A stretch of 64,000 bases of DNA from Trypanosoma brucei (Eukaryota), in NCBI GenBank assembly GCA_000002445.1, contig CP000068.1, positions 1,152,001 to 1,216,000 of the forward strand, given 5' to 3'. This document shows, in pieces, positions 23,492 to 59,091 of this stretch. Under the pieces are notes generated by a model that was not told where the DNA came from, made no database searches, and saw only the letters and a list, made by a program, of their open reading frames with translations. How positions within the stretch are numbered: the first letter of the stretch is position 1; the number at the start of each line of letters is the position of its first letter. The position numbers and the translations under genes are program-made.

Positions 23492-24745
23492 ATGAGTGTA
23501 TCTCGGGCACAAGTTGTGCTCATCGGTGTTTCGGGGTGCAGCGCATCGGGAAAATCGCTTGTATCGTCACGATTAGCTGCCATGTTGGGTTCTCCATTAT
23601 TTCCCGTTGCTATGGATTCGTTCTTTGATGAGGATGAATGTGAGCGATTGGGTGTATGGGAAGATCCCCGTTGCCTACGAGCTGCGGAATATACTCAATG
23701 CGTTGCTACAATTCGTGCATTAATTGAGCAATATGGCGTGGCAGCCGCACCACTGCATACCGTAAAGGATGCCGCACAGTTCCTTCGGTTTGAAGCAAGC
23801 TCAGCTGTGTCCCATCCTCCCATGCGCGAAAGCGCGGTCAGTTACACGGTTAAGTCCTATGGGGAGGCGTCGAAAAAGTGTGTTAGCGAAGCTAATAATA
23901 TAGTCCTCTCTTCCCTCTGCATGAATGACGCATGCGTCGCTGGTAACGCTGCAGATGGGACAGATGTGGCGTTGGAAAAGGTGTTTATTGTGTGTGAAGG
24001 GTTTTTAATTTTCGGTTATCCCGAATTATGCAACATGTTTGACTTCTTCGTTTTTGTTCACAGCGATAATGAAACAGCTTGCTTGCGTCGTTTCTTCCGC
24101 GGTTCGCGGCGGAAAAAGCGAAAACCACAAGGTGGCAATTGTGACCGCATCTTGCGCATGCGCACGTCCCGTGTTAACGCGGAACTCTGGAGTAGTGAAG
24201 GAGCTGCGGCAAATAAGACGCTTTCCCCTTCATTTTCATCCGTACTTCCGCATCTTAAATATATGCCACCGCAACCATCGTCTCCAAATGATTACCAGGG
24301 TTTCTGGCTTCAGAGCGAATACAAGGAATTACCGCCGCCGATGCCCTTTGGAATGAGTGGCTTAAAGGCTCCACCATATGACTGGCTGGAGGTGAAGGAC
24401 TTGCAGTATGTTAAACAAATGCTTCATCAATGGGCAAATGCGTCCTGCGTGGATGATGTCGAGGGTGTCCTCGGGCGTTATTTCGAATTTCGGTACTGGT
24501 TCTACTACGAAGTATTGTTTTATCACTATCAGTTGCGTGGGATTAGTGAAGAAAATGTGACAACGGCTTGCCAGGCGAAAGGTACCACAAAAACCTCCCC
24601 ATCCCAATCTGTGCTTCATATTAAAAATGACGCGAGCGTTTCGTGTGTTATGCTTGACAGTCAACTTTTAGCTTTAGCACAACAGGTTTCGGGAGATCTT
24701 ATTAATGGGGAAGGAGAGGTAAGATTACTTTTGGGGTGGAATTAA
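23492..24745 (+). CDS. P-loop nucleoside kinase of the uridine-kinase / nicotinamide-riboside-kinase (NRK) family (N-terminal ~230 aa) with a ~190-aa C-terminal extension of unknown function.
   Basis: Walker A 'VLIGVSGCSASGKSLVS'. 'VAMDSFFDED' resembles NRK1 'ISQDDFFKPE'. 'VFIVCEGFLIFGYPELCNMFDFFVFVHSDNETACLRRFFRGSRRK' resembles NRK/UK 'IIEGFLLF...FDxxxF...YEECKRRRSTR'. Confidence 0.55.
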   Translation: MSVSRAQVVLIGVSGCSASGKSLVSSRLAAMLGSPLFPVAMDSFFDEDECERLGVWEDPRCLRAAEYTQCVATIRALIEQYGVAAAPLHTVKDAAQFLRFEASSAVSHPPMRESAVSYTVKSYGEASKKCVSEANNIVLSSLCMNDACVAGNAADGTDVALEKVFIVCEGFLIFGYPELCNMFDFFVFVHSDNETACLRRFFRGSRRKKRKPQGGNCDRILRMRTSRVNAELWSSEGAAANKTLSPSFSSVLPHLKYMPPQPSSPNDYQGFWLQSEYKELPPPMPFGMSGLKAPPYDWLEVKDLQYVKQMLHQWANASCVDDVEGVLGRYFEFRYWFYYEVLFYHYQLRGISEENVTTACQAKGTTKTSPSQSVLHIKNDASVSCVMLDSQLLALAQQVSGDLINGEGEVRLLLGWN

Positions 24746-29781: not shown

Positions 29782-32700
29782 ATGAAAATAGGAACAAAAG
29801 CTGAGCTCATTTTGCACGGGGGCGAATGTTTTAGCGGAGTTTCATTTGGTTATGAAGAAAGCGTTGCGGGAGAGGTTGTTTTTACCACAGGAATGGTTGG
29901 TTATCCTGAAAGTCTTACGGACCCTTCGTATCACGGTCAGATATTAGTGCTTACCGCACCCATGGTCGGAAATTATGGAATCCCTCCACTGGAGACGGAT
30001 CCTTTTGGAGTAACAAAATACTTCGAGAGCATGAATGGGGAGATTCGTGTGAGTGCGCTCGTCGTTTGCGAATGTTGTGAAGAACCTTCGCATTGGCAGA
30101 TGTATGAGACACTTGGTGCATGGCTAAAGCGAAATAAGGTACCAGGAATCATGATGGTGGACACTCGCAGTGTTGTACTGAGACTTCGGGAAATGGGTAC
30201 AGCTCTGGGAAAGGTTGTTATCAACGGCGCTGATGTGCCTTTTGTGGATCCTAATACACGCAACTTGGTAGAAGAAGTGAGCACAATAGCCCCTCAGTCC
30301 TATGGGCATGGTACATTGAGGATCCTCGTTATTGATATGGGTGTAAAATTAAATTCGTTGAGGTGCTTACTGCGGTATGATGTCACACTTACTGTTGTGC
30401 CACATGATTGGGATATAACGAAGGAAACATATGATGGTTTATTCATTTCTAACGGGCCAGGTAATCCTCAACTGTGTACCAAAACGATTGAAAATGTGCG
30501 ATGGGCTCTCACTCAAGAAAAACCGATATTCGGTGTTTGCATGGGTAATCACATGTTGGCCCTCGCAGCAGGAGGAACGACGTACAAGATGAAGTTTGGT
30601 CACCGAGGTCAGAACCAGCCATCGACATCCAATCAAGATGGACGTGTAGTAATTACAACGCAAAATCACGGGTTTGCCGTAGATTTCAAATCGTTGCCGC
30701 AGGGTGATTGGGAAGAGTACTTCTTTAACCCCAATGATCAATGTAATGAAGGGTTACGGCACCGCACGAAGCCCTTTTCATCAGTTCAGTTTCACCCTGA
30801 GGGTTGCTGTGGTCCACAGGACACCGAGTACCTTTTCGGAGAGTTTATTGACCAGGTGAAGCGTTCAAAAACGAAGTTGGCAGCACAGTTTAAACCCCGC
30901 AAGGTTTTGGTATTGGGTGCTGGCGGCATTGTTATTGCCCAAGCTGGCGAATTCGACTACAGCGGCTCCCAGTGCTTAAAGGCTCTGAGAGAGGAAGGTG
31001 TGAAGTCTATATTGGTTAATCCCAACATTGCCACTGTGCAGACAGATGATGAAATGGCTGACCAAGTGTATTTTGTACCCGTCACTCCTGAAGCTGTGGA
31101 ACGAGTGATTGAGAAGGAGCGTCCAGATGGTATTATGCTCGGATGGGGCGGGCAAACAGCACTCAACTGTGGGTTGCAGTTGGACAAACTTGGTGTCCTC
31201 AAAAAGTACAATGTGCAGGTTCTTGGAACAGCTATATCTACAATCACTGTGACCGAGGATAGGGAGCTCTTCCGCAACGCGCTTTTGCAGATAAATGAGC
31301 CTGTGGCAAAGTCCGTAGCAGTGACCAGTGTGGCGGAGGCATTAAAAGCAGCGGCAGACATCGGATTTCCAATGATGGTGCGAGCGGCTTTTTGCCTCGG
31401 TGGTCAAGGTAGCGGCATTGTAAATAGTGAAGAGGAACTGAGTAATAAAGTTGAGGTTGCCCTTACTGTGGCACCTCAAGTCTTACTTGAGGAAAGCGTT
31501 GCTGGTTGGAAGGAGATCGAGTACGAAATTGTCCGTGATATCCATGATAATTGCATTACGGTGTGCAACATGGAGAATTTTGACCCCATGGGCGTCCACA
31601 CAGGGGAGTCCATTGTTGTGGCCCCGTCTCAAACTTTGACAAACGAGGAATATCACATGTTGCGTACCGCAGCGATCAAAATCATCCGTCACCTTGGCGT
31701 GGTGGGCGAGTGCAACATTCAATACGGTTTGGAACCCCACTCGCGTCGTTACGTTGTTATTGAGGTAAACGCCCGCCTCTCACGTTCCTCCGCACTTGCG
31801 TCTAAGGCCACGGGTTATCCACTCGCACACGTTGCAACCAAAATAGCCCTTGGTAAGGGTCTGTTTGAAATTAAGAATGGTGTTACAAAAACAACGATGG
31901 CTTGCTTTGAACCCAGTCTTGATTACGTCACCGTCAAGGCTCCCCGTTGGGATGTGGCAAAGTTCAATATGGTGAGTCAAGAGATCGGGTCCATGATGAA
32001 GAGTGTTGGTGAAGTAATGGCCATCGGTCGTACATTTGAGGAGGCCGTGCAGAAGGCACTGCGAATGGTGGATCCATCGAATAACGGCTTTGACACTCCC
32101 AAAAGACTTGCTGAAATGGGTGACAAGTGGGACTACATGCGGGCGCTGCGCGTTCCTACGCCAGATCGCATCTTTGCGATTTGCCGTGCCTTGAAGGAAG
32201 GCATCACAGTGGATGAAATACATCGGTTAACTCGCATCGACAAATTTTTCCTCAACAAGTTACAACTCCTGATCGAGATGCAGAGGGAACTGACCACGCT
32301 ATACAGGGGTAAACTGGACACAATCACATATGACCACCTCCTTGCTATGAAAGCGCACGGTTTCAGCGACGTTCAGATTGCTGAGTACCTCCAGTGCACA
32401 ACTGACGATGTACGGAAACGGCGCTACAAGTTGAACATTACCCCCAAGGTGAAGCAAATCGATACAGTCGCTGGCGAATACCCCGCCGCGCAGTGTTGCT
32501 ATTTATACACCACCTACAACGCACAACACGATGATGTCGAATTCAACGATCGTATGTACGCCGTGCTTGGTTGTGGTGTGTACCGGATTGGCAGCAGCGT
32601 GGAGTTTGACTACGGTGGTGTCTTAGTCGCTCGTGAGCTCCGTCGACTCGGTAACAAAGTGATTTTGATTAATTATAACCCCGAAACAGTGTCCACAGAT

Positions 32701-35283
32701 TATGATGAATGTGACCGCCTGTACTTTGAAGAGGTGTCAGAGGAGACAGTGCTTGACATCCTGCTCAAAGAAAAGATTAGCGGTGTTATCATATCGCTGG
32801 GTGGACAAATTGTCCAAAATATGGCCCTTCGATTGAAAGAGCATGGGCTGCCGATCCTTGGGACAGATCCTGTAAACGTTGATAAGGCAGAAGATCGCAA
32901 CAAATTCTCGAAGATGTGCGATCAACTGGGTGTACCGCAGCCCGAATGGATTTTGTCAACAAGTGTTCAAGATGTTCACGCGTTCTGCCAGCGCGTCGGT
33001 TTCCCGACACTTGTGCGACCAAGCTATGTGTTGAGCGGCTCTGCTATGGCTGTCATATCGTCTCCGGAAGATATTGACCGCTACCTCACTAAGGCTTCGT
33101 TGGTTTCTGGTACTCATCCTGTTGTGGTGAGCAAGTACTACGAAGGTGCAATGGAATACGACGTTGATATCGTTGCCCATCACGGCCGTGTGCTCTGTTA
33201 CGCGATTTGCGAGCATTTGGAAAATGCTGGTGTACACTCAGGAGATGCCACGATGTTCCTTCCTCCACAGCACACCAAAAAGGAGGTCATGAAACGCATA
33301 TACGAAGCAGCCACACAAATTGCCGGAGAGTTGGATGTTGTCGGACCCATGAACGTTCAGTTCTTGCTCACTAAGGACGAGCAGCTGCGCGTGATTGAGG
33401 CGAACATCCGCAGCTCACGTTCCGTGCCGTTTGTTTCCAAGACGCTTGGCATATCGTTCCCGGCCGTCATGGTTTCCGCGCTTCTATCGCGTCCCGACTC
33501 CGAGCTTGTGCCAATCCGTCGTGCTAAGATGACTCACATTGGTTGTAAGGCTCCTATGTTCTCATTCAACCGACTCGCTGGCGCTGACCCTATCCTCGGT
33601 GTGGAGATGGCATCCACGGGTGAAATTGGCGTATTTGGCTGTGACAAACGCGAGGTGTTTCGTAAAGCAATGCTTTGCCAGAATTTCCGGTACCCGACAA
33701 AAGGTGTTTTTATCAGCTCTGATGTGGACGCAGTCACTGAGGAGCTCCTCCCCCACCTCGAGAAGATTTCAAAGACGTTACCACTTTTTGCATCAACACA
33801 CACCGGTGCTGTGCTCACCAAGCACGGCATTCCGCACACTGTCTTAACTCAAAGGCATGAGGATGGTGACAATCCCACATACGAGGTGGAGCTCGCGGCG
33901 AGGCGATTTGACCTCGTTATTCAGCTACGAAATAAAAGGAAAGATTTCATTCTGCGAAGCTGCACGCGGGAAAATGCACCACCAGACTACTGGGTCCGCC
34001 GCCTTGCTGTTGACTACAACGTAGCACTCCTTACCGAGCCCAACGTTGTGAAGATGTTCTGCGAAACCCTTGACATCATTGGTGATATCGAGATCGAACC
34101 ATTCCGCTACTACGTACCTCGCGTATATCACAAAATAGAGAGCAATAACTGCACTATGCTGCGCCACCACAAGGTTGGTCTCTGTATTAATCCTACGATG
34201 GATAGCAAGGTCCTCGCCATACGTATGCGCGAAGAGAAAATCGATCTCACATGCTTCCACGCGTCTCTCGGTGGATCGGTCACGAGCAGCGAGGCCTTTG
34301 CTGAGGAGTTCCGGTCACTTAAGGTTCCCGTGGAAGTTGTAGATCTCCGTAACGAAATGGCAGAACTCGCCTTCGATATGGTGATGGCTCTCATCGCAGA
34401 AGAAGATAACAGGTGGCACTTGCCGGCGCTGGCTGAACACGTCATTGGCGTGCACCTCCTCACTGCGATGCAGGAGCGCGGTGTTACTGTTGTTGCACAG
34501 TGCTCATCACAAGGGAGGAAGGGAATGAATTTTGAACGTTATGCCCGCATGCTTCAGCCGAAGATGGGTGTTTATAGCCCGTGGCGAGACCAACGTATGC
34601 TAAGTGATTTCCCTACAGAGGCTGAAAAAATCAATTTTCTTGAAAAACATGAGGTAAAGGTTCAATCAGCAGCGATGGAGACACACAGTAGTATCTGTGG
34701 CATTACATGTGGATTGGGCGGCGAAGTCGCCACGCCTACACCACGGATGGTTCTCCCTGTGTCTAAATGTCCCGCCACACCCGAGTTTTGCTCTATTGCA
34801 TTCCGTGCGGCACGCTGCGTCCGCATCAACGACGTCGATGTCACACCGGTTCAGGCCCTGCAGCTGGCGAACGAAATTGCCGGCCGCAATGGTGTCGGTC
34901 TTGAACACACTCAAAACAATGAGATGTGCGAGGCGCCAGGTATGACACTACTTTCCAAAGCTCTGCACTTTATCTATGACGTGTGTTTCGATCGCGGTAA
35001 CACTGATGCCTTCCGTATGTACTCCCGGCATGTGTCATCCATGCTTTCCTCACGCGGTTTCGTTGAGCGCCAAACACTATCTTCATTGGAGGCTATCCGT
35101 CATTTAACAGCGGATGTGGACGGTGTGGTGGATGTGGAAGTGAACCGAGGTGAAGTGATATTCCTAAAGGTATCGCACGTCTCACGGCCCGTAAAGCTTC
35201 GACTAACCAAAATCATGACTGACGAAGAGCTCGAGGAGGTGTTCCAACCCGGTGACGGCACGTTCGGTGATGTACAATGGTAG
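29782..35283 (+). CDS. PYR1: Carbamoyl-phosphate synthetase II: a glutamine amidotransferase-CPS fusion (kinetoplastid pyr1) with an additional ~385-residue C-terminal extension. Approximate domain spans: GATase ~29782-30870, CPS large chain ~30898-34120, extension ~34126-35283.
   Basis: Class-I GATase motifs '[18 protein letters not shown]' and '[13 protein letters not shown]'. CPS large-chain motifs '[25 protein letters not shown]', the ATP-grasp pair '[15 protein letters not shown]' / '[16 protein letters not shown]', the oligomerisation domain and the MGS-like domain 'KGVFISSDV...[17 protein letters not shown]'. 1833 codons. No ATCase domain is fused. Confidence 0.95.
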   Translation: [1833 protein letters not shown]

Positions 35284-35770
35284 GCCGCTGACTAAAAATA
35301 CGTATGCGTTTGAGTGTAGTGAATGTGAGTTGACGTAACTTCCTTAGAAAACTTATTTTAGTCAACGCTCCTCTTGACGAGATACTGAATGTGCCTGAAG
35401 TGGAAAGTGAAAGCGGGGAGCGGTGTGGATGTATTTCACTTATGCTTCCAATTTTCCCGTTTCAACATGATACCGCGAGGATATGAAGGAAAAGGGACGT
35501 GAAGGAAGCAACCGAAGTCAGAACATTTCTTACTGCTAGTGGGATGGTCCCACAAATCAACAGCGTGGGCGCCGAAATCGAGTGGTCATTTTCACAATAC
35601 CGTTTACCACATTCTCCGTTCTGTCAATTGTGCCTACACAAATTTATTTTATCCCGTTTCCATTCTTGCACCTTCTCCGTTTTTTTTGGTTTTATTTTTC
35701 ATTTTTAGTTATGCCATTTCTCCACCCATTTTATTTTGTTTGGCCCCTCTCTTTCTTCCCCTGTCCCTCT

Positions 35771-35783
35771 CCCCCCCCCCCCC
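35771..35783. repeat. C13 homopolymer within a CT-rich tract, in the CPSII downstream region.
   Basis: ctctcccccccccccctctccccctc. Confidence 0.9.
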
Positions 35784-36185
35784 TCTCCCCCTCTTTCCTC
35801 TTTTTTTTTCTTTACTACGGTCAGGTTGAGATTTCTGAAAGGAGGGAGGGTAAGGGACAGGGGAGGGATGTAAGCGTCACGAGGGTACTGAATTCAAAAC
35901 GGAAGCAACGTTTAAAAAATAAACATACACACACACACACAAACGTTCGTTGATAACACTATTGCCGGTATATTTTTGTTAAGGAATCAAACAAGAGAGA
36001 GGGAGAGGAAATGATAGCATGCGACGGTATCTAACTTTACTTCCCTCATCGATATATGGTAATTCCCTTCCCTGAAAACGAATCGAGGGTAAGCGCGGCA
36101 TTAAGAATTCCCCACCGTGTTTTTTTTTGATTTGTGTTACTAAACTTCTCAAATGAATCATGAGAAGTAAAAAGGAAGGAAGGAA

Positions 36186-36197
36186 GGGGGGGGGGGG
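36186..36197. repeat. G12 homopolymer.
   Basis: ggaaggggggggggggtaaag. Confidence 0.9.
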
Positions 36198-36977
36198 TAA
36201 AGTCATTGTTTTATGTGTATGCGCCTCCGTGTGTTGCGGAACCCTGCAAAAGGAGAAAGAACCGTACCGCAGAGCCGGTGTAAATTTACCCTGAAGTCAC
36301 GTAGACGAGTAAATGGTGGTTACTAATAAGTAATATAATTAATTTAACTGCACAGTATAGATAAGAGGACGGGTTGGGCGTGAAGAAAAAAAATGAGAAC
36401 GGTTACAATGGAGAAAAGGGGAGGGTAAGCTGACTTTTTCGGCGTGTCAAAAAATTAGTATAATAATCGATTCTTTCTTTGCTTCTCTCCTTCTTTTTGT
36501 TTTTTCCTCTTCTTCACGCGCTCTCCTTCTCTTTATTTTTACCGTCTTTGACCCCTTTTTCCCCTCCTCGTTTGGCCGTGGCTGTGATAACTGATTTCAC
36601 TTCAACTCCCTAAAGGAATATAGTGGAAGCAAAGATTTGGGAGCGTGACTAGAAATGTTTTGTGCACAGCCCTCCCACATGGCGAATAATTGTAGCGGCA
36701 GTTTCTAACGGTTATATGTTTAACTGCATTATGCCCCTCTCTCACTTGGCGCCATCTCTGTGTTACAACATGCGTTTGATCTATCAGTTTATTATATTGT
36801 TTTCCCTCAAACACATGCGAAGCGAGTAAGAGTTGAAAATGTTACGGCAAAGGCCAATGGGCACTGGTAGAAGGCAACGGATCGCGGTTATGAAAGTTCT
36901 TGTGTGTATGTTTATGTGGGGGTGGGGGTGGAAGTTGTGGTAGTGTCATCTCGTGTACATTGTTTAAGTCGCTTCAA

Positions 36978-37026
36978 CCTTGTTTCTTTTTTTTTTCCTT
37001 TTCTTCTTCTTCGCTATCTGATTGAG
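36978..37026 (+). promoter_or_regulatory. Polypyrimidine tract plus AG upstream of OMPDC-OPRT: a candidate trans-splice acceptor.
   Basis: 'ccttgtttcttttttttttccttttcttcttcttcgctatctgattgag', ~155 nt upstream of the ATG. Confidence 0.4.
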
Positions 37027-37180
37027 TTTTCATACTAAGTTGGATCCGCTGCTTGACTTGTATATATAAAGCAGCAGTATTCTAGGTAAAGAAGACCAAA
37101 TAAAAAAGAAAGAGGTAAGTAAAAATTGAAGACACATATATACAAACCAACAAGTGTTGTGAAAGGCAAACAGTTACAAA

Positions 37181-38557
37181 ATGTCCTCTACTTTCTTTGA
37201 TATGCTTAACAAACGGGCGAAAACCACGTTGCTCTGTATAGGCTTAGACCCACGGGCTGACACTGCAGCGGCAGCAGTTCTCGAGTGCAAGCGGATTATT
37301 GACACCACATCCAACTATGCGGCGGCATATAAGCCTAACGCAGCCTTTTTTGAGTGTTTTGGAGCAGCCGGTTGGTCGGCACTCGAAGAAGTGATCGCTC
37401 ACATTCCTCAGGACATTCCCGTTTTGTTGGACGCGAAGCGTGGTGATATCGCTGACACGGCAGAGGCATATGCGAAATCTGCCTTCCAACGCCTCAAGGT
37501 ACACGCCATAACTGCTTCACCATACATGGGGGGTGATTCCCTGCAACCCTTTCTGAAGTACTCATCGAAGGGAGTATTTGTTTTGTGTAAAACCTCCAAC
37601 AAGGGTTCCAGTGAGCTTCAATGCCTACAAACAAATGGGCAGTCTCTATATGAAACCATTGCCGAACGTGCTGAGAGAGTTTGGAATTACAACCGTAATG
37701 TCGGTTTGGTTGTTGGTGCCACGGACCCTGTTGCCCTCTCCCGCGCACGAGCATGTGCCCCCACATTGTGGATTTTGGTTCCTGGTGTTGGAGCACAAGG
37801 CGGCGACCTGAAGGCAGCACTGCAAGCTGGGCTGCGTACGGACGGGAGCGGTCTGCTAATTAATGTCTCACGTGCAGTAACCCAAGCGAAAGATCCGCGC
37901 GCGGTGGCACAAAAGCTCTGCGAGGATATTAACCGTATCCGGCTGCGCACAAACAATGTGTCGGAAATGGCAGGCGCACTTGTGGCATCGCAATGTGTAC
38001 GCTTTGGTAAGTTCACTCTGAAGTCAGGGAAAACATCGCCCATTTACATTGATCTGCGCCGTCTCGTAACACATCCGTTGATAATGCGTTTGGTGGCCCG
38101 TCACTACGCGCGTATATTAACCACTATGCAGTTTGACCGCATTGTGGGTTTGCCCTACGCTGCGCTCCCTATTGCGACCGCCATTTCACTTGAGATGAAT
38201 GTTCCTCTTATCTACCCACGCCGGGAGAGGAAAGATTATGGTACGAAGGGTCTCATTGAGGGAGATTTTCAGAAAGGCGACCGTGTGGTAATTGTTGACG
38301 ACCTCGTGACAACAGGTGAGACAAAAGTAGAGGCTATTGAGAAGCTGAAGGCAGCCGGGCTTCATATTGTTTCCATAGTTGTGCTCATTGACCGAGAGAT
38401 GGGCGCCAAAAAGTTCCTCGGTAGTCTTGGTTATGAGTTCCATGCAGTTGCCACACTTTCTCAATTACTCCCGCTTTGGTTACAGCAAGGCGCCATTACG
38501 GATAAGCAGATGCGAGAAGTCACCGCCTTCATGTTGGAATCCACTAGCAAGCTGTAA
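37181..38557 (+). CDS. PYR6-5: Bifunctional OMP decarboxylase (N-terminal) and orotate phosphoribosyltransferase (C-terminal) with a C-terminal SKL. This is the kinetoplastid pyr6-5 arrangement, reversed relative to metazoan UMP synthase.
   Basis: OMPDC motifs 'LLCIGLDPRAD' and 'VLLDAKRGDIADT' (DxKxxD catalytic Lys). OPRT begins near 37967 'MAGALVASQCVRFGKFTLKSGKTSPIYIDLR', with the PRPP-binding loop 'VVIVDDLVTTGETK'. The last three codons before the stop encode S-K-L (PTS1). Confidence 0.95.
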   Translation: MSSTFFDMLNKRAKTTLLCIGLDPRADTAAAAVLECKRIIDTTSNYAAAYKPNAAFFECFGAAGWSALEEVIAHIPQDIPVLLDAKRGDIADTAEAYAKSAFQRLKVHAITASPYMGGDSLQPFLKYSSKGVFVLCKTSNKGSSELQCLQTNGQSLYETIAERAERVWNYNRNVGLVVGATDPVALSRARACAPTLWILVPGVGAQGGDLKAALQAGLRTDGSGLLINVSRAVTQAKDPRAVAQKLCEDINRIRLRTNNVSEMAGALVASQCVRFGKFTLKSGKTSPIYIDLRRLVTHPLIMRLVARHYARILTTMQFDRIVGLPYAALPIATAISLEMNVPLIYPRRERKDYGTKGLIEGDFQKGDRVVIVDDLVTTGETKVEAIEKLKAAGLHIVSIVVLIDREMGAKKFLGSLGYEFHAVATLSQLLPLWLQQGAITDKQMREVTAFMLESTSKL

Positions 38558-39390
38558 GTGGGTCGGAGCTCTATCTTTAAGCTATTGCGGACGTACACAC
38601 ATGTTTTCGTTGCAAATTATTTTCGCACCTACTTCAGATCGTAAGCGTGGGGAGTAATAATAATGCTCCCTACCATGAATTTAAGCAGTTTGGTGAATGA
38701 ACAATTCGCTTTAAATTGATGGACCATGAAATGCACTTTTACGGTCGCAGCGTTTAACTAAGTGGCGAGGGCAAGTTTTTAATAATAATAATAATAAAGC
38801 AAATAGTAAACTATATGAGACAGCAATGGGGTTTGGGAGGGAAGGTTTAATCGCTTCAAAGGTATTTGTGTGTGGTTGAGGAGGTGATAGCGAAGTGAGG
38901 GTTTCTAATAACTGTAGAGCAGCAATAAAAAAAAAGGTAGCAGTTGATCAATTTGCTGTGGTGCCCTCTGCATTGAAGGGTATCTGGGATGTATGAAGTT
39001 CCATCACTCGGAGCCATCACCTTTCCCTCATTTCTCGTTTACATCCTTTACATGTTGGGTGGTGGCATTAATTCTTCACTTAACAAATAAACAAAGGGGA
39101 CTACAAGAGGAACAATAAGGATATTGTGTGACTTCCCCCCCCCTCTCTCTCTTCATTTAGTTGAACTGTCAGTGGATACACACAAGGAAGGTTTCGGATG
39201 AAGCTAAAAAGGAAAGAGGATGATGTTAAACGATGAGTATGATAAATATGCGTAATTGCTAATTGGGTGGACAACGGAGAGAAGCAGAAAATAAAAATGT
39301 TGAGATCAGATTGGAAGTGTTGTGTGGACAGATAAACTGGGTTGTATAGCGTACAGTAATAGCATTGACTCTCTTTTGACAACTTACGCT

Positions 39391-39430
39391 GTTTCCCCCT
39401 CTTTTTTTTTCTTTTCACACCTTCCTTCGT
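39391..39430 (+). promoter_or_regulatory. Polypyrimidine tract upstream of ATCase: a candidate trans-splice acceptor region.
   Basis: 'gtttccccctcttttttttcttttcacaccttccttcg', ~240 nt upstream of the ATG. Confidence 0.35.
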
Positions 39431-39670
39431 TATGACGCACCACTGGAAAGGCAGATCGCCTTCTCTACACGTTATTTAAACGGTGAAACGACCGGAACTG
39501 ACAGGGTTGACAACAGGAAAAAAGAGGAAAAGAAGGGAAGGAAGTGTGAGATACCTGCGGTCTCGGAACTTGCTAAATTTTCACAGCTATCGAAAACCAG
39601 TGGCGATAGTTCTCATAGGGTCGGACGTGAACTACCGTTTTCTTCTCTGACGTCGGACTCAGACGAATAA

Positions 39671-40654
39671 ATGGCGGAGCTGCAACCTGTAACTAGTTTG
39701 AAGGGGAAGAGCATAATAACCGCAGCTCAGTTCACCCGCCCCGATATTGATGCTCTCATTCGCCTTGCCACTGCACTTAAAGAGAAGATATGTGCGGGAG
39801 AGGTGTTACGTTTTCTTGAGGGTCGCATCATGACACCTCTATTCTTTGAGGATTCCTCCCGCACGCTTAATTCCTTTTGTGCGGCCATGGCGAGGCTTGG
39901 AGGTCGCGTTGTGTACTTTAAAGCCGAAACCTCCTCCGTGAACAAAGGCGAGACACTCGGGGATACGGTTCGGACGCTGGATTCCTACAGTGACGTACTT
40001 GTGCTGCGTCACCCAAAGCAGGAGGCCATTACGGAAGCGGTTGCCAAAGCTACGCATCCCGTTTTGAATGCCGGGAATGGGGCCGGTGAGCACCCAACAC
40101 AAGCACTTCTCGACGTGTTAACAATACATTCTGAACTGGGCCGCGTTGACGGTAGCACAATCGCGATGATTGGTGATCTTAAGATGGGACGTACGGTCCA
40201 CTCACTACTGAAGTTGCTGGTGCGTAACTTTAAAATGAAAACCATCTTCTTTGTTGCGCCGGATGCACTTCAAATGCCACAGGATGTGGTGGACTCACTA
40301 AAGCAGGAAATAGCAGCAAGTGGCGTGACAATTCGAAGTAGCAACTCGCTGACAGAAGAAATTTTGGGACAATGCGATGTGTTGTACGCCACCCGTCTGC
40401 AGAAGGAGCGCTTTGCCGCAGCGGCTCTGGACGAAGCGAAGGCGTTACAGGCATTTGAAGCGGCAAAGGCGGATATCGTTATTAATGCCGAGCGCATGAA
40501 GAAGGCGAAGGCGAAGATGATTGTCATGCACCCACTTCCCCGTAATGATGAATTGTGCACCAGTGTGGACGAGGACCCACGCGCGGCATACTTTAGGCAG
40601 ATGCAGTACGGTATGTATATGCGGATGGCCATACTTTACAGTGTTCTCGCTTAA
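39671..40654 (+). CDS. PYR2: Aspartate carbamoyltransferase, catalytic chain only.
   Basis: 'FFEDSSRTLNSF' (carbamoyl-phosphate site), 'GEHPTQALLD', 'LKMGRTVHSL' and 'MHPLPRNDEL' are the ATCase signatures. 327 aa. Confidence 0.95.
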   Translation: MAELQPVTSLKGKSIITAAQFTRPDIDALIRLATALKEKICAGEVLRFLEGRIMTPLFFEDSSRTLNSFCAAMARLGGRVVYFKAETSSVNKGETLGDTVRTLDSYSDVLVLRHPKQEAITEAVAKATHPVLNAGNGAGEHPTQALLDVLTIHSELGRVDGSTIAMIGDLKMGRTVHSLLKLLVRNFKMKTIFFVAPDALQMPQDVVDSLKQEIAASGVTIRSSNSLTEEILGQCDVLYATRLQKERFAAAALDEAKALQAFEAAKADIVINAERMKKAKAKMIVMHPLPRNDELCTSVDEDPRAAYFRQMQYGMYMRMAILYSVLA

Positions 40655-41211
40655 GGCACAAACGGAAGCAGGAGTGTAAAAGAAAAAAGAAAGGAACAAC
40701 AGAGCCCAAGGAGAAACTCACAGGTTGATTGGTTTAACTTCGCTCAATAGAGAGTGGATTAGCACAGTGAGGGTGTCCAACACGTTAACAAAGTGAGGAA
40801 ACGATAAGGAGCATCGGCCTCCAGTGGAGCGAATTATTAATATTCGGAAGGTAAATGATCGCATCAATATCTTGGATGTTGGCAAGAGGATCGGCAGCTG
40901 AAATGGTTTAGTGACCGGTTTTCCTTTAATTTTTTAAATCGTGACTTAGCTACAGCAGGTGGGAGAAAGATAAAAGAAAATGGGGGATCACACAACGACC
41001 ATGAAGGTTCCTGCCACCAAGCGCAACCGAGTAGTTACGTGAGAGTTACAAGTTGTTAGTGAGCGGTAACTTAACAATCCACACCCTTGTAACTTTTTTA
41101 AAGAAAAATAAAAGAGAAAACACCTGTTAGGGAATATTTCTTGACCTGACCACAGTTTCGTACATCTTTCCGTTGTCTACCTGGATACCACCCAAAATGC
41201 TTTGCAAATCA

Positions 41212-41256
41212 TCCCGTTTTGCCTTTTTTTTTCTTTTTTAATTTGTTCGCTTTGAG
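41212..41256 (+). promoter_or_regulatory. Polypyrimidine tract plus AG upstream of DHODH: a candidate trans-splice acceptor.
   Basis: 'catcccgttttgccttttttttcttttttaatttgttcgctttgag', ~210 nt upstream of the ATG. Confidence 0.35.
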
Positions 41257-41463
41257 CCATTGATTCTTCGGTTTTGACCAATAATTATCAAACATCCCAA
41301 GGGGAACATTAACGGGGAAAAGAGTTAAGGGGAAGAGGCACTTAAAGGAAGTACACAACATTTGTCGATATTGAAACGAAACGAGGGAGTCAGTACATCC
41401 ACGCAACTGAGTGAGGTGTGGTAGTAGTGCAACCGTAAACGCATACGCAAAGGGAAAAGTAAC

Positions 41464-42405
41464 ATGAGTTTGAAAGTTAATATTCTCGGACATGAGTTTT
41501 CCAACCCGTTTATGAATGCTGCGGGAGTTCTCTGCACAACAGAGGAGGACTTGCGTCGCATGACGGAGAGCGAAAGTGGTTCACTTATTGGAAAGAGTTG
41601 CACACTCGCCCCTCGTACGGGTAATCCTGAGCCACGCTATTTTGGTTTGCCACTAGGGAGTATTAACTCAATGGGGCTTCCAAACCTTGGTGTCGACTTT
41701 TATTTGAGTTATGCTGCACAGACGCACGATTACAGTAGGAAGCCGCTGTTCCTCTCCATGTCCGGCTTGTCTGTAGAGGAGAGCGTGGAGATGGTGAAGA
41801 AACTCGCTCCGATAACGAAGGAAAAGGGTACCATTCTTGAACTAAACCTCTCTTGCCCGAATGTACCTGGGAAACCACAGGTCGGATATGACTTTGACAC
41901 AACACGTACGTATCTTCAGAAGGTGTCTGAGGCATACGGTTTACCGTTTGGGGTGAAGATGCCACCCTATTTTGATATTGCTCACTTTGACATGGCAGCC
42001 GCCGTGCTAAACGATTTTCCTCTCGTGAAGTTTATCACGTGTGTGAACAGTATCGGGAACGGCCTCGTCATCGATCCAGCCAACGAGACAGTCGTGATAA
42101 AACCTAAGCAGGGATTCGGTGGACTTGGAGGGAAATACGTTCTCCCAACTGCACTAGCGAATGTGAATGCCTTTTTCCGTCGTTGCCCCGACAAGTTGGT
42201 GTTCGGATGTGGCGGTGTTTACAGTGGAGAAGAAGCTTTTCTACACATCCTCGCCGGTGCCTCTATGGTACAAGTCGGCACTGCTCTGCATGATGAAGGT
42301 CCCATCATATTTGCTCGACTCAACAAGGAACTGCAAGAAATTATGACAAACAAGGGGTATAAAACCCTTGATGAGTTCCGCGGACGCGTGAAGACGATGG
42401 ATTGA
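41464..42405 (+). CDS. PYR4: Dihydroorotate dehydrogenase, family 1A (cytosolic, fumarate-dependent type with an active-site Cys).
   Basis: 'NAAGVLCTTEEDL', 'GSINSMGLPNLG' and 'ELNLSCPNVPGKPQ' (Cys catalytic base, hence family 1). From memory, the sequence looks essentially identical to the crystallised T. brucei DHODH (unverified). 313 aa. Confidence 0.95.
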   Translation: MSLKVNILGHEFSNPFMNAAGVLCTTEEDLRRMTESESGSLIGKSCTLAPRTGNPEPRYFGLPLGSINSMGLPNLGVDFYLSYAAQTHDYSRKPLFLSMSGLSVEESVEMVKKLAPITKEKGTILELNLSCPNVPGKPQVGYDFDTTRTYLQKVSEAYGLPFGVKMPPYFDIAHFDMAAAVLNDFPLVKFITCVNSIGNGLVIDPANETVVIKPKQGFGGLGGKYVLPTALANVNAFFRRCPDKLVFGCGGVYSGEEAFLHILAGASMVQVGTALHDEGPIIFARLNKELQEIMTNKGYKTLDEFRGRVKTMD

Positions 42406-43405
42406 GGCATACATGGGTGTTGATGAGCATGCAATTACGCTTAAGAACGTACACACCGACGGATATGGGCTTGTAATAAGGCATACAAAATGCGTTATTG
42501 AGTCTAACATTCTCTGATATAATGTTTAAGTACGAAAACGAGTTAAGGGACGAATTGCGCCGACATGACAAAATGTTCTGCCTCATTATTTATTACTCTG
42601 TAGGGCCACAATTATCCCTCTTTACACATCTTTTCGTGGTTCTTTCTCCCATTTTTCCCCGTTTTGAATTATTGTGTTAATGGAAAATTGTGCCCCTTGT
42701 GAAAGTGGATGCAGAGCAATAAAAAGCATTACATCTCCGATGAAGGTAAGGGGCGAACTGTTGACGTCTGGCTTGTGAATGGCTTATCTCTAACTTGTGT
42801 CTTTCTCGTCCTCTCCATGCTGTTACCTTTGGCACACCTCTATCTTCTTTGTTAGCCCTCAAAACCGTTTTCCCCTTTTTTCATCTATAAGTTAGTTGTG
42901 CACTCAGCACTATTCGTGCAGAATGTAGCTTCTAGTTATGCGCCAGCTTCTCTTTTTATCCAATTTCGTGTACCGACGGCACATCTTCCTATCTTTCAGC
43001 ACGGGGGTTGAAGGCGTTATCGTCGCCACAAGCTTTGCAGATGTTTTACCGCTGTTCCGTGAATTATTTGCGATTGAATGGGAAGCGGAAGGATAGTAGT
43101 TTTATATCTGTTTTTATTTTTTAATGAATATTTGATTGTGTTAGGGAAAGGGTGGATGCCTCAGTGTCAACTTTCGGCCGGTTGTGTGGTGACACGCCAG
43201 CTCCGCTGAATATTTTACATAGCCTTTGCTGCATCGGGTGCCTCATGTGTATACACGGGTCTTACAATGATGTTTTTTTTTGTTTCTTTCATCATAATTA
43301 TCATCAAACTCAATGTATTTACCTGTATTTCTTTTAATTGCTTTTTCCTGATTACTTTTTTTTTGGTGGTACAATAGGGTATCAGAAACCTTTTTAGAAA
43401 TCCTG

Positions 43406-45133
43406 ATGCATGGAGCTTCAGTCGGAGCCACTACTTCGATGCTGTCAGCCGCGGTCGAGTTGGGAACCAGTCAGAGACAGTTGATGCGAACCAGGTGTTT
43501 TCGTTCCGCTTTGCGCTGTGGCTTCAGGGCGGTGCCGCCCCTCTTGTTTACCGATTGCTCGCAATTTCTGCACCAACAACGCAATGCAAGTAGCTTTAAT
43601 AAGTTTGAGGCGGTCTCCTATGCGGGGCGTTCTCGCAATGTGGCTAATGCTTTTAACCCACTAGAGTTAAATTTGTTTGACGATCCGACTGGTGGCCTTA
43701 CTGCTGGTCCTGCGGAGGAGCTTCCATCTACTGATATCGCGAGCCAGGTCCGGCTTTGTGTTGCCACATACTCTCGTCATCACTATTACCTGCTCTTCAC
43801 GCCTTTTGTAGACGTTATGTCGATTGTTTTCCAACTTGGTTTGGCTCCGAATGTGGCGCGACCTGGTGAAGTGATGGCTCGATGGTTCACAGATGCTGTG
43901 GCAACATTACAGAACCCTTCTTGTATGGAAGAGGTGATGGGATCGAAAGCATGGCAACGACTCTGCGAGGGACTTGATAAATTCTATGAAGATGTGGAAC
44001 CGGTAATGCCGCTTACCGCTGCTGTGCGAAAACATGGGCTACCGGAGAACTTGTTGGTACCTTTCATGAGACAACTTGCTATGGATTTGTTGCTACCGGC
44101 GCGCAGGCGAGGAGTTGTGGAGATCTTGCCAGGGTTGATATTAGGTCTTGCTAACGGAAGAGCACCTCCGGAACTTGGGTTTCCGGAGGCTGCGGGAGCA
44201 GCCGCATCGACGTCCACAGCGTTAAAGGGTGCTGCTGAGGAGCTGCAACGAAAGCGAGCCACCATGGCGGCAGATCTCTTCCTTGGTGTAGGGCAGGAAA
44301 CGGGAAACACGGACTTTGCCTACCTTGGTATTCAGCTCCTGCGCGCAAACGACATCGCAGTCCCTTTCCCAAAGCAAAAGCAACTGACCAATGTTTTTTC
44401 CGCTGCGACAAGAATTCAAACAGATTGGCAGATGCGGGTGAGTGGCCAACTTATGGAGGTGCTGCCCAAATGGATGGATTACTACAAAACGGTGTATAGC
44501 GACAACATGCGTGCCATCAAGAAGTTACACGAGAAAAGTGAGACGATACCGGAGCGGGGTAACATCAAAAATCCCGCTGCTTCTCGGGGTAATAAACAAT
44601 CGCAGCAAACCCAAAAAGAGGGAGACGAATCTGACGAAACACGGTGCACCGACGTTGGAAGTGACAATGGCGATGATGGTATGCACGACTACTTCACAAG
44701 CAACCGGAGGGAAAACATTGCTCGTGTTGCCGATCTAGAGAGTCGTATTGAGGAGTGCGTACGGAAGAGAGACATTGAGTGGCGTGACGACGGTGATCAA
44801 TTGTATGGTCGGTTCAAGCGGAAGAAGTCCCTGGCTGCTGGAGGGTCTTTAAAAAATGACGTGACTAGTGAAGACGTGGCGGAAGGAAAGGATCAATCTA
44901 GTGCAAAAGTGGTTGACGCGGAAGGTTTGGTTAAGGCGCAGAGGCAGACAAGTATGGATTTGGGGGATGAGGATTGCGCTGATGTCGCTTCTAGGTTCAG
45001 GGTTTCCACCAATCAGGCACCACCTGAGCACTTAAAAAAAAGTATGGCTGAAGACAACGCGTTCAAGAGCGCCTCGAAATACATTAGGGGAACTATTAAC
45101 AGTTGCGAAGAGGAAGAAATATGGGAACTGTAA
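43406..45133 (+). CDS. Hypothetical protein (575 aa); possible organellar presequence; Asp/Glu/Lys-rich C-terminal half.
   Basis: A long ORF in polycistron orientation with protein-like composition. The N-terminus 'MLSAAVELGTSQRQLMRTRCFRSALRCGFRA' is basic and hydroxylated. No family recognised. Confidence 0.5.
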   Translation: MHGASVGATTSMLSAAVELGTSQRQLMRTRCFRSALRCGFRAVPPLLFTDCSQFLHQQRNASSFNKFEAVSYAGRSRNVANAFNPLELNLFDDPTGGLTAGPAEELPSTDIASQVRLCVATYSRHHYYLLFTPFVDVMSIVFQLGLAPNVARPGEVMARWFTDAVATLQNPSCMEEVMGSKAWQRLCEGLDKFYEDVEPVMPLTAAVRKHGLPENLLVPFMRQLAMDLLLPARRRGVVEILPGLILGLANGRAPPELGFPEAAGAAASTSTALKGAAEELQRKRATMAADLFLGVGQETGNTDFAYLGIQLLRANDIAVPFPKQKQLTNVFSAATRIQTDWQMRVSGQLMEVLPKWMDYYKTVYSDNMRAIKKLHEKSETIPERGNIKNPAASRGNKQSQQTQKEGDESDETRCTDVGSDNGDDGMHDYFTSNRRENIARVADLESRIEECVRKRDIEWRDDGDQLYGRFKRKKSLAAGGSLKNDVTSEDVAEGKDQSSAKVVDAEGLVKAQRQTSMDLGDEDCADVASRFRVSTNQAPPEHLKKSMAEDNAFKSASKYIRGTINSCEEEEIWEL

Positions 45134-58176: not shown

Positions 58177-59091
58177 ATGATGACTGGGGGAGTCGTGGAA
58201 ACTCTATGCGTAACGGGTCGTACCTTCTCACCTCAGGTGGCGGCGACTCTCTGGACGCACGGCATGGCACGGCGGCACTCGTCAAATGTGTGGGTGCCGG
58301 CGGAAATTATTGACCGACTTGGTTTGAAATTGTCAGGGACGAACCCTCCGGCTCCGGTCGGTGTCGATGCCGCGAATGGCCGGCGATTTTTTTACAATGC
58401 ATCGCAGTTGGAGTGCTCACAGGAGGAGTTGGTAGCGATGACTAAAAGTTTGCTGGAGGCCCGGCGTGGCATTGCGGAGGCCATTAATGGAGATACGCAT
58501 CCGCTTAACACAAATGGTGAACCCTTCCCACTGGAGTTCGCTCAGCAGGCACGACTGCGAACGAAAACATATGAGACAGCAGTGCAAAGTCGTTTTTGGG
58601 CGACAGAGTATGAGGCGGCTTACATCTTTCGTAGCCCGTTCAAACCATCGTTCTTAACGCCCGAGAACGCAGTCACGGTTCGTGGTGGTGCGGTGTACCC
58701 CCGGCTTTGTTACTATAACGTTTGTGGCACACGTGATCCTAGCATCTTCAGTCATGAAACTTGTCGACGCTACCGCCCAGTTAATTACTATGGTCAACCG
58801 TATCCTGCAGCAACTTCCGTACAGATGAAAGCACTCTCCATTCAATATGGTTGCATGAATGACACACTGTGGGTATCGACCAGGCGTGCAGAGCGCGTAG
58901 GCGTTAAACTTCGCAGCGGTGTGAAACCATTGCTGTTTTGTGTAGAGGATATGACTTCCCTCGTAAATGTTGCGATGACGGAGGATCCGGATCGTTTGAA
59001 GAGGGACATCCTTTCATTCACACAGCACGGCGCAGTGAGTGGGGTTGCGTCGGCATTCACTCCAAAGAGTTTCTCACTACTCGCCTCGTAG
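58177..59091 (+). CDS. Hypothetical protein (304 aa).
   Basis: An ORF with protein-like, non-repetitive composition in polycistron orientation. No family recognised. Confidence 0.45.
   Translation: MMTGGVVETLCVTGRTFSPQVAATLWTHGMARRHSSNVWVPAEIIDRLGLKLSGTNPPAPVGVDAANGRRFFYNASQLECSQEELVAMTKSLLEARRGIAEAINGDTHPLNTNGEPFPLEFAQQARLRTKTYETAVQSRFWATEYEAAYIFRSPFKPSFLTPENAVTVRGGAVYPRLCYYNVCGTRDPSIFSHETCRRYRPVNYYGQPYPAATSVQMKALSIQYGCMNDTLWVSTRRAERVGVKLRSGVKPLLFCVEDMTSLVNVAMTEDPDRLKRDILSFTQHGAVSGVASAFTPKSFSLLAS

What the first reader, a model, noticed from the sequence alone, without database searches (positions are those of the whole stretch)
29782..42405. Operon-like clustering of four de novo pyrimidine genes in a eukaryotic polycistron, with non-metazoan fusion architecture
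CPSII (GATase-CPS), OMPDC-OPRT, ATCase and DHODH are consecutive on one strand within 12.6 kb. The fusion pattern differs from animals, where the arrangement is CAD plus OPRT-OMPDC: here CPSII lacks ATCase and DHOase, and the OMPDC-OPRT fusion is in reversed order. DHODH is the soluble family-1A type with an active-site Cys in NLSCPN, characteristic of fumarate-dependent enzymes. This type is thought to have been acquired horizontally in kinetoplastids. Clustering of a whole pathway is unusual for eukaryotes and is a known hallmark of trypanosomatid pyr loci.
Basis: partly seen in the sequence, partly recalled or inferred. Interest (0 to 1): 0.5.

Follow-up and report, generated by a model that had tools for sequence, protein, structure and literature searches.

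The report
Known Trypanosoma brucei pyrimidine gene cluster

Summary
Four intact + strand ORFs at 29782-35283, 37181-38557, 39671-40654 and 41464-42405 encode GATase-CPS (CPSII), OMPDC-OPRT ending in SKL, ATCase, and a family-1A DHODH with Cys131 in NLSCPN. All four products are exact matches to annotated T. brucei brucei TREU927 proteins (Tb927.5.3800 to Tb927.5.3820, plus the adjacent DHODH). The DHODH has solved crystal structures (2B4G, 5XFV).

Synteny holds with T. cruzi, T. melophagium and L. major. The clustering, the reversed UMPS fusion, glycosomal targeting, and the bacterial origin of the DHODH are all in the literature. The finding is therefore already known.

Two corrections:
1. 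The T. brucei cluster is not the whole pathway. Dihydroorotase, which lies between CPSII and OMPDC-OPRT in relatives, is missing and has left no relic.
2. CPSII is not just GATase-CPS. Its last ~370 residues are a full-length argininosuccinate-synthetase fold with both catalytic signatures destroyed.

This extra domain is conserved across trypanosomatids and bodonids. Diplonemids and a prokinetoplastid carry a comparable degenerate domain at the N-terminus instead. I found no mention of it in the papers I could search. It is the only possibly new item.

The parts
29782..35283 (+). pyr1: carbamoyl-phosphate synthetase II (Tb927.5.3800), 1833 aa, arranged GATase - CPS - ASS-like domain
   Evidence: Intact ORF. 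Pfam domains. Exact match to AAZ11491/XP_845050 of T. brucei TREU927. Gene id from PMC3155505.
29806..30852 (+). Glutaminase part of CPSII: CPSase small-chain domain (res 9-144) and class-I GATase (res 182-357), with the catalytic Cys in GVCMG at residues 251-255
30898..34035 (+). Synthetase part of CPSII: two preATP-grasp/ATP-grasp halves, the oligomerisation domain, and a weak MGS-like allosteric domain (res 373-1418)
34171..35169 (+). Argininosuccinate-synthetase-like domain (res ~1464-1796) with a degenerate P-loop (CINPTMDS in place of SGGLDS) and a degenerate GNDxxRF signature. It is followed by a low-confidence tail ending in the conserved VFxPGxGxFxDxxW.
   Evidence: Pfam PF00764 and PF20979 above cut-off. 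phmmer against PDB 1J1Z, E=5.8e-15. TIGR00032 argG, E=4e-26 but far below the family cut-off. AF2 model pLDDT 83.9, with Foldseek TM 0.74-0.80 to ASS structures. Motif test.
35284..37180 (.). 1.9 kb intergenic gap at the position where pyr3 (dihydroorotase) lies in T. cruzi, T. melophagium and L. major. No DHOase relic. It contains + strand polypyrimidine tracts.
37181..38557 (+). pyr6/5: bifunctional OMP decarboxylase - orotate phosphoribosyltransferase (Tb927.5.3810), 458 aa. OMPDC spans res 17-245 (DAKRGD at 84) and OPRT spans res 267-427.
   Evidence: PDB 3QW4 (named 'UMP synthase' in the PDB), E=1.4e-213.
38546..38554 (+). C-terminal SKL, a PTS1-type glycosome targeting signal
   Evidence: Role as given in PMC5803862.
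39671..40654 (+). pyr2: aspartate carbamoyltransferase catalytic chain (Tb927.5.3820), 327 aa, with SSRT at 62, HPTQ at 141 and HPLP at 287
   Evidence: (TIGR00670, 304.8 bits, cut-off 237)
41464..42405 (+). pyr4: cytosolic family-1A, fumarate-dependent dihydroorotate dehydrogenase, 313 aa, with no N-terminal extension
   Evidence: PDB 2B4G and 5XFV carry this protein; NF002702, 452 bits, cut-off 301
41845..41862 (+). NLSCPN active-site loop, with catalytic Cys131 at 41854-41856
   Evidence: Cys131 is named as the catalytic residue of the L. major enzyme in PMC5803862.

Best explanation
The region is the de novo pyrimidine (pyr) gene cluster of Trypanosoma brucei chromosome 5: pyr1 (CPSII), pyr6/5 (OMPDC-OPRT), pyr2 (ATCase) and pyr4 (DHODH). 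The genes lie head to tail inside a long one-strand polycistronic transcription unit.

By established knowledge of trypanosomatid gene expression (inferred here, not tested), the unit is transcribed as a whole and cut into single-gene mRNAs by trans-splicing and polyadenylation. Adjacency is therefore not an operon in the bacterial regulatory sense.

The enzymes work as follows:
- Cytosolic CPSII makes carbamoyl phosphate from glutamine.
- ATCase adds aspartate.
- Dihydroorotase, encoded elsewhere in T. brucei, closes the ring.
- The soluble Cys-type DHODH oxidises dihydroorotate using fumarate.
- The SKL-tagged OMPDC-OPRT completes UMP synthesis in the glycosome.

The cluster is ancestral to trypanosomatids, with the order pyr1-pyr3-pyr6/5-pyr2-pyr4. 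T. brucei has lost pyr3 from it. The genes have different evolutionary sources, so the cluster was assembled in the kinetoplastid lineage rather than imported as one operon.
For: - Identity: all four products are exact matches to T. brucei brucei TREU927 AAZ11491-AAZ11494, on a 1.6 Mb contig.
- Domains and motifs.
- Solved structures of the same or orthologous proteins.
- Synteny: in T. cruzi and T. melophagium, the shared neighbours seen in the window (RING-finger gene, cyclophilin-RRM, Spo11, tetraspanin) precede CPSII, followed by DHOase and OMPDC-OPRT. T. melophagium continues with ATCase and DHODH. L. major has CPSII, DHOase, two histone genes, a hypothetical gene, OMPDC-OPRT, ATCase and DHODH.
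- Transcription unit: all Pfam-supported ORFs in the 64 kb window are on the + strand, and + strand polypyrimidine tracts precede each gene.
- Literature: cluster order and T. brucei loss of synteny at DHOase (PMC5803862); gene ids and adjacency (PMC3155505); SKL and glycosome, fumarate-dependent DHODH; bacterial origin of the DHODH (PMC7052976).
- Mixed origins: the OMPDC-OPRT fusion is 58-61% identical over 98% of its length to Chloroflexi MAG proteins with the same domain order. The DHODH matches the family-1A model and, among solved structures outside kinetoplastids, comes closest to 3OIX and the 1DOR group of 'dihydroorotate dehydrogenase A' chains. The CPS core is about 50-52% identical both to animal CAD and to bacterial fused CPS.
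Against: Nothing contradicts the identification. Limits:
- Polycistronic transcription and trans-splicing are inferred from strand layout and general knowledge, not from RNA data.
- The location of T. brucei DHOase was not determined.
- The horizontal-transfer claims rest on cited phylogenies (one described by its authors as weakly supported) and on similarity rankings here, not on a tree built here.
- In the T. cruzi locus fetched, ATCase and DHODH did not fall within 5.6 kb downstream of OMPDC-OPRT, so their linkage in T. cruzi rests on the literature.
Confidence: 0.97

Rival explanations
1. The cluster is a remnant of a single bacterial pyr operon acquired in one horizontal transfer. The review PMC5803862 says the operon-like arrangement suggests that the genes were acquired laterally.
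For: The genes are adjacent and co-oriented. OMPDC-OPRT and DHODH have bacterial affinities. In a Chloroflexi MAG, the closest named bacterial OMPDC-OPRT is immediately followed by a DHODH gene.
Against: That neighbouring Chloroflexi DHODH is the Ser-type (NVSSPN) enzyme and is only 26% identical to the T. brucei DHODH. The closest non-kinetoplastid solved structures to the DHODH are 3OIX and the 1DOR-group 'dihydroorotate dehydrogenase A' chains, whereas the closest named bacterial relatives of the UMPS fusion are Chloroflexi. The CPSII core is no closer to any one bacterial group than to eukaryotic CAD. A diplonemid locus shows no pyr neighbours around its CPSII. The components therefore have different donors.
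Confidence: 0.05
2. The adjacency has no present function. It is retained synteny (a frozen accident) in a genome where gene order changes slowly and polycistronic units give no gene-specific transcriptional control.
For: T. brucei removed pyr3 from the cluster yet keeps the pathway. Leishmania tolerates histone genes and an unrelated gene inside the cluster. This view is compatible with the best explanation and concerns only why the cluster persists.
Against: Four or five genes of one pathway have stayed together in Leishmania and in three Trypanosoma species, which suggests some constraint. It was not tested here whether this exceeds general trypanosomatid synteny conservation.
Confidence: 0.4

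Closest known systems
Trypanosoma cruzi pyr cluster (pyr1-pyr3-pyr6/5-pyr2-pyr4), first noted by Aoki et al. as cited in PMC5803862
   Same: Same genes, same strand and same order. The same upstream neighbours are present (RING finger, cyclophilin-RRM, Spo11, tetraspanin). CPSII is 1834 aa with the same C-terminal domain, and OMPDC-OPRT is 458 aa.
   Different: T. cruzi has dihydroorotase (386 aa) between CPSII and OMPDC-OPRT. T. brucei has only a 1.9 kb gap there with no relic.
Leishmania major chromosome 16 pyr locus (CPS gene id LmjF.16.0590, from PMC6027508)
   Same: CPSII (1842 aa), OMPDC-OPRT, ATCase and DHODH lie in the same order on one strand, with products 65-73% identical to those of the window.
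   Different: The Leishmania locus contains DHOase, two histone genes and a 733-aa hypothetical gene between CPSII and OMPDC-OPRT. That hypothetical gene is homologous to window ORF 23492-24745, which lies upstream of the T. brucei cluster.
Animal CAD plus UMPS (OPRT-OMPDC)
   Same: The same six catalytic activities. The GATase-CPS core is about 50-52% identical to CAD.
   Different: There are no DHOase or ATCase domains on the CPSII polypeptide; an inactive ASS-like domain follows the CPS part instead. The UMPS domain order is reversed and the protein carries a PTS1. The DHODH is the soluble Cys/fumarate type, not the mitochondrial Ser/quinone type.
Fungal URA2 (GATase-CPS - inactive DHOase-like domain - ATCase)
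   Same: As an analogy only: a CPSII polypeptide that carries a catalytically dead enzyme-like domain. PMC7052976 says only that the fungal protein lacks the dihydroorotase function. The existence of an inactive DHOase-like domain in it is from my own knowledge.
   Different: The dead domain here is an argininosuccinate-synthetase fold, not an amidohydrolase, and no ATCase is attached.
Family-1A DHODH: the 'dihydroorotate dehydrogenase A' chains of PDB 1DOR and related entries. From my own knowledge, these are Lactococcus lactis DHODA, and S. cerevisiae URA1 belongs to the same family.
   Same: Cys active-site base in the NLSCPN loop, about 310 aa, no membrane anchor. E about 1e-108 to 1DOR.
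   Different: None in kind. The T. brucei enzyme is a regular member with its own crystal structures.

Membership tests
Trypanosomatid pyr gene cluster | pyr1, pyr6/5, pyr2 and pyr4 consecutive on one strand in that order | tested here: met
   The same order is seen in L. major and T. melophagium.
Trypanosomatid pyr gene cluster | pyr3 (dihydroorotase) between pyr1 and pyr6/5, so that all six activities are encoded in the cluster | tested here: not met
   No amidohydrolase/DHOase domain was found in any of the 31 window ORFs scanned. tblastn with T. theileri, L. major, T. melophagium and T. cruzi DHOases gives nothing better than E=2.5. This is the T. brucei deviation already reported in PMC5803862.
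Kinetoplastid CPSII (GATase-CPS fusion without ATCase or DHOase) | One polypeptide carrying the glutaminase and both synthetase halves, with no OTCace or amidohydrolase domains | tested here: met
CAD | DHOase and ATCase domains fused C-terminal to CPS | tested here: not met
   the C-terminal 385 residues are ASS-like instead.
Reversed UMP synthase (OMPDC-OPRT), glycosomal | OMPDC N-terminal, OPRT C-terminal, and a C-terminal PTS1 (SKL) | tested here: met
   Glycosomal location itself is from the literature and is not testable here.
DHODH family 1A | Cysteine as the active-site base in the NLSCPN loop | tested here: met
   Cys131
DHODH family 1A | No N-terminal membrane or mitochondrial extension, and closer to 1A than to 1B or family 2 models | tested here: met
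   The DHO_dh match starts at residue 3. NF002702 scores 452 bits, against 182 bits for the NF005574 model (which I read as the 1B type, from my own knowledge) and at most 86 bits for the quinone-type models.
DHODH family 1A | Fumarate as electron acceptor | not testable with these tools
   PDB entries for this exact protein are named 'dihydroorotate dehydrogenase (fumarate)'. Kinetic values are quoted in PMC5803862.
Aspartate carbamoyltransferase catalytic chain | OTCace_N plus OTCace domains with the S-x-R-T, HPTQ and HPLP motifs, and a score above the ATCase equivalog cut-off | tested here: met
   TIGR00670, 304.8 bits, cut-off 236.95. Motifs.
Argininosuccinate synthetase (for the CPSII C-terminal domain) | ASS fold: an N-type ATP-pyrophosphatase domain plus the synthetase body | tested here: met
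   AF2 pLDDT 83.9, Foldseek TM 0.74-0.80 and E about 1e-25 to eight different ASS structures. Sequence E=5.8e-15 to 1J1Z.
Argininosuccinate synthetase (for the CPSII C-terminal domain) | The two catalytic signatures: the SGGxD[TS] ATP P-loop and G-x-T-x-[KRM]-G-N-D-x-x-R-F (PROSITE patterns recalled from my own knowledge) | tested here: not met
   Both are absent from all 14 CPSII-fused domains examined. Six of eight free-standing relatives keep SGGLxS, and all eight, plus an NRPS-fused one, keep GNDxxRF. The TIGR00032 score is 92 bits against a cut-off of 268. It is therefore not filed as an active ASS.

The most novel reading that the evidence does not exclude
The C-terminal ~370 residues of kinetoplastid CPSII are a conserved, catalytically dead argininosuccinate-synthetase domain. 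It sits where DHOase and ATCase sit in CAD. Diplonemids and the prokinetoplastid Papus carry a different degenerate ASS-like domain at the N-terminus of the same enzyme. I found no description of this in the searchable literature. The speculative reading is that the pseudo-enzyme domain is the oligomerisation or docking module, or an aspartate/nucleotide-sensing module, that holds together the non-covalent CPSII-ATCase-DHOase complex reported in T. cruzi. It would then be a Rosetta-stone counterpart of the ASS1-CAD interplay described in mammalian cells.
Probability: 0.3. Interest if true: 0.5.

Novelty: already known. Interest (0 to 1): 0.15.

Why it matters
The cluster is textbook material for trypanosomatid biochemistry, and its enzymes (DHODH, UMPS, ATCase) are established drug-target candidates, so confirming it adds nothing new. 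The scan does give a clean positive control: a reader working from raw sequence recovered a true, annotated locus with correct domain logic.

The one item that could matter is the degenerate ASS-like domain on CPSII. If it organises or regulates the first three steps of pyrimidine synthesis, it would be a parasite-specific feature of an important pathway. It would also be a case of repeated recruitment of one pseudo-enzyme fold to the same partner in Euglenozoa.

Tried and rejected
- **Word-index search with the ASS-like fragment.** The search for homologous proteins with the 403-aa C-terminal fragment returned no hit at all, although the parent protein is in the collection. I treat this as a limit of the word index. 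The exhaustive HMMER search and the full-length query gave the answer instead.
- **DHOase relic.** I looked between CPSII and OMPDC-OPRT and across the whole window. There is none by tblastn. blastn of the intergenic DNA against the T. melophagium and T. cruzi intervals gave only 21-30 nt matches.
- **Co-transfer of OMPDC-OPRT and DHODH.** I tested transfer from a Chloroflexi-like operon and rejected it: the neighbouring bacterial DHODH is family-2-like and 26% identical.
- **T. theileri locus L003.** It appeared to lack CPSII upstream of DHOase. The locus contains 1390 N and a low-complexity gene model, while the sister species T. melophagium has the full cluster. I did not use it as evidence.
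- **Structured RNAs and repeats.** The Rfam scan of the window found nothing at gathering thresholds. No notable tandem repeats lie in 27-46 kb.
- **Literature on the ASS-like domain.** Three searches and three topical papers gave no mention. Subscription-only papers on T. cruzi pyr1 could not be read.
Full report
**1. Observation**

- 29782-35283, 1833 aa
- 37181-38557, 458 aa
- 39671-40654, 327 aa
- 41464-42405, 313 aa

Pfam assigns them as follows:
- ORF1: CPSase small chain, class-I GATase and a duplicated CPS large chain, with no carbamoyltransferase or amidohydrolase domain.
- ORF2: OMPdecase (17-245) followed by a phosphoribosyltransferase domain (295-409).
- ORF3: OTCace_N plus OTCace.
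- ORF4: DHO_dh.

The translations and a motif check show the expected catalytic residues:
- GATase: GVCMG at 251.
- OMPDC: DAKRGD at 84.
- ATCase: SSRT at 62, HPTQ at 141 and HPLP at 287.
- DHODH: NLSCPN at 128-133, with Cys131.
- OMPDC-OPRT: ends in SKL.

All ORFs in the 64 kb window that have Pfam support are on the + strand.

**2. Identity**

An exact-sequence look-up finds all four products in the public collection as Trypanosoma brucei brucei TREU927 proteins AAZ11491-AAZ11494 (XP_845050-XP_845053), on a contig of 1,608,198 bp. PMC3155505 gives the gene ids Tb927.5.3800.3810 and .3820 and notes their adjacency.

The DHODH is the protein of PDB entries 2B4G and 5XFV, deposited as 'dihydroorotate dehydrogenase (fumarate)'. 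The OMPDC-OPRT matches PDB 3QW4, deposited as 'UMP synthase', at E=1.4e-213.

NCBIfam places the DHODH in NF002702 (dihydroorotate oxidase) at 452 bits against a cut-off of 301. NF005574 scores 182 bits; I read that model as the family-1B type from my own knowledge. The quinone-dependent models score at most 86 bits. Family-1A membership is therefore met on every feature that can be tested from sequence.

**3. Synteny**

Loci around orthologues were fetched.
- T. cruzi: RING-finger genes, cyclophilin-RRM, Spo11, a 427-aa gene, tetraspanin, CPSII (1834 aa), DHOase (386 aa) and OMPDC-OPRT.
- T. melophagium: the same, continuing with ATCase, DHODH and a 330-aa gene.
- L. major: CPSII (1842 aa), DHOase, two histone genes, a 733-aa gene, OMPDC-OPRT, ATCase, DHODH and a 328-aa gene.

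The window has a RING-finger gene, cyclophilin-RRM, Spo11 and tetraspanin upstream of CPSII in the same order as these relatives, with a Tc-38-domain gene and a 417-aa gene between Spo11 and tetraspanin.

The review PMC5803862 states the T. cruzi order pyr1-pyr3-pyr6/5-pyr2-pyr4. It also states that clustering is general in trypanosomatids and that T. brucei has lost synteny at the dihydroorotase locus.

**4. Dihydroorotase is missing here**

No ORF scanned in the window has an amidohydrolase or DHOase domain. tblastn with four trypanosomatid DHOases finds nothing better than E=2.5. The 1.9 kb CPSII to OMPDC-OPRT spacer shares only 21-30 nt matches with the corresponding T. melophagium and T. 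cruzi intervals.

The T. brucei cluster therefore encodes five of the six activities, so 'a whole pathway' needs that correction. The 328-330 aa gene that follows DHODH in L. major and T. melophagium also has no counterpart in the window. Synteny therefore ends at the 3' edge of the cluster.

**5. How it works**

The mechanism is the established one.
- The genes sit in a one-strand polycistronic unit. Polypyrimidine tracts of 15-50 nt precede each ORF on the + strand, as expected for trans-splicing acceptor regions. The RNA processing itself is inferred from general knowledge, not tested here.
- CPSII and ATCase start the pathway. In T. cruzi these two plus DHOase co-precipitate as a non-covalent complex (PMC5803862).
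- The soluble DHODH uses fumarate.
- The SKL-tagged OMPDC-OPRT is glycosomal.

**6. Origins**

The literature attributes the kinetoplastid DHODH to bacterial transfer: Annoura et al., as cited in PMC7052976, whose own tree gives weak support. It lists the OMPDC-OPRT order in kinetoplastids, oomycetes, diatoms and some cyanobacteria as independent fusions (PMC2705460).

In my search the full-length OMPDC-OPRT is 58-61% identical over 98% of its length to Chloroflexi/Anaerolineae MAG proteins with the same domain order. That is almost as close as the named bodonid sequences, at 62-64%. In one such MAG the next gene is a DHODH, but it is the Ser-type enzyme and only 26% identical to the T. brucei protein. 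A single-operon transfer is therefore not supported. A diplonemid CPSII locus has no pyr neighbours.

**7.

CPSII is about 380 residues longer than a GATase-CPS needs to be. Several lines of evidence identify the extra region:
- Pfam reports Arginosuc_synth and Arginosuc_syn_C above their cut-offs at residues 1486-1794.
- phmmer against PDB aligns residues ~1467-1793 to residues 5-347 of PDB 1J1Z, 'Argininosuccinate Synthetase', at E=5.8e-15.
- TIGR00032 argG matches at E=4e-26, but at 92 bits, far below its 268-bit cut-off.
- An AlphaFold2 model built from 19 aligned sequences has pLDDT 83.9 and pTM 0.83. It superposes on eight different ASS crystal structures at TM 0.74-0.80.

The ATP P-loop reads CINPTMDS where free ASS-family proteins have SGGLDS. 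The GNDxxRF signature reads GRKGMNFERY. A pattern test finds neither signature in any of 14 CPSII-fused domains. Of eight free-standing relatives, six keep the P-loop motif, and all eight, plus an NRPS-fused one, keep GNDxxRF.

The domain is present in every trypanosomatid CPSII listed and in Parabodo. Its identity to the T. brucei domain is 61% in T. cruzi, 51% in Leishmania and 41% in Parabodo, against 81%, 75% and 68% for the CPS core. It ends in a conserved, low-confidence tail, VFxPGxGxFxDxxW.

Diplonema japonicum, Flectonema neradi, an ENA contig and the prokinetoplastid Papus ankaliazontas have CPSII of similar length. In these, a degenerate ASS-like domain sits at the N-terminus. The two kinds score only 21-57 bits against each other, but up to 187 bits (C-terminal kind) and about 100 bits (N-terminal kind) against free ASS-family proteins. 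This suggests separate fusions or very fast divergence.

The bona fide trypanosomatid ASS is a separate, Firmicutes-like gene (PMC3846528).

None of the papers I could search mention this domain. I could not read the original subscription papers on T. cruzi pyr1. Its function is unknown. A scaffold or sensing role in the CPSII-ATCase-DHOase complex is a guess, prompted by its position and by reports of ASS1-CAD interplay in mammals (PMC12363443, listed).

**8. Verdict**

The finding is real, correctly interpreted and already known. It deserves a low interest score. The ASS-like pseudo-enzyme domain is a side observation worth a short follow-up.

Noticed in passing
window 34171-35169 (CPSII residues ~1464-1796), tail to 35280: CPSII carries a full-length but catalytically degenerate argininosuccinate-synthetase-like domain at its C-terminus. 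It is conserved in all trypanosomatid and bodonid CPSII sequences examined. It is not mentioned in the papers searched.
   Followed up: yes
L008 10001-~11150; proteins P0316, P0317, P0320, P0321: Diplonemids (Diplonema japonicum, Flectonema neradi, one ENA contig) and the prokinetoplastid Papus ankaliazontas have a different degenerate ASS-like domain at the N-terminus of CPSII. It is only weakly similar to the C-terminal kind (21-57 bits).
   Followed up: partly
window 35284-37180: The position occupied by dihydroorotase in T. cruzi, T. melophagium and L. major is an empty 1.9 kb spacer in T. brucei, with no protein-level or DNA-level relic of the gene.
   Followed up: yes
window 37181-38557; L004 320-2810: The OMPDC-OPRT fusion is 58-61% identical over its full length to Chloroflexi/Anaerolineae MAG proteins with the same domain order, almost as close as bodonid orthologues. 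In one MAG it is followed by a family-2-type DHODH unrelated to the kinetoplastid one.
   Followed up: partly
window 42406-45133; L007 23366-24358; L001 19493-20479: The 328-330 aa gene that follows DHODH in L. major and T. melophagium has no homologue anywhere in the window. T. brucei instead has a 575-aa ORF (43406-45133) with no Pfam match, so synteny breaks at the 3' edge of the cluster.
   Followed up: partly
window 23492-24745; L001 7176-9377: The 733-aa hypothetical gene inside the L. major pyr cluster is homologous to the T. brucei 417-aa ORF that lies upstream of tetraspanin and outside the cluster. This indicates a local rearrangement between the lineages.
   Followed up: partly
window 21271-22440 and 58177-59091: Two ORFs carry the Trypanosoma Tc-38 (p38) domain, about 36 kb apart on the same strand.
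   Followed up: no
protein P0023 (T. b. gambiense CPSII, 1624 aa) against window 29782-35283 (1833 aa): The T. b. gambiense DAL972 gene model in the same 90% cluster is 209 residues shorter than the TREU927 protein. This is probably a gene-model or assembly difference.
   Followed up: no
L003 (T. theileri NBCO01000010.1 348560-369936): The locus has 1390 N and a low-complexity 1672-aa gene model where CPSII is expected upstream of DHOase. This is probably an assembly gap or mis-join, since T. melophagium has the intact five-gene cluster.
   Followed up: partly
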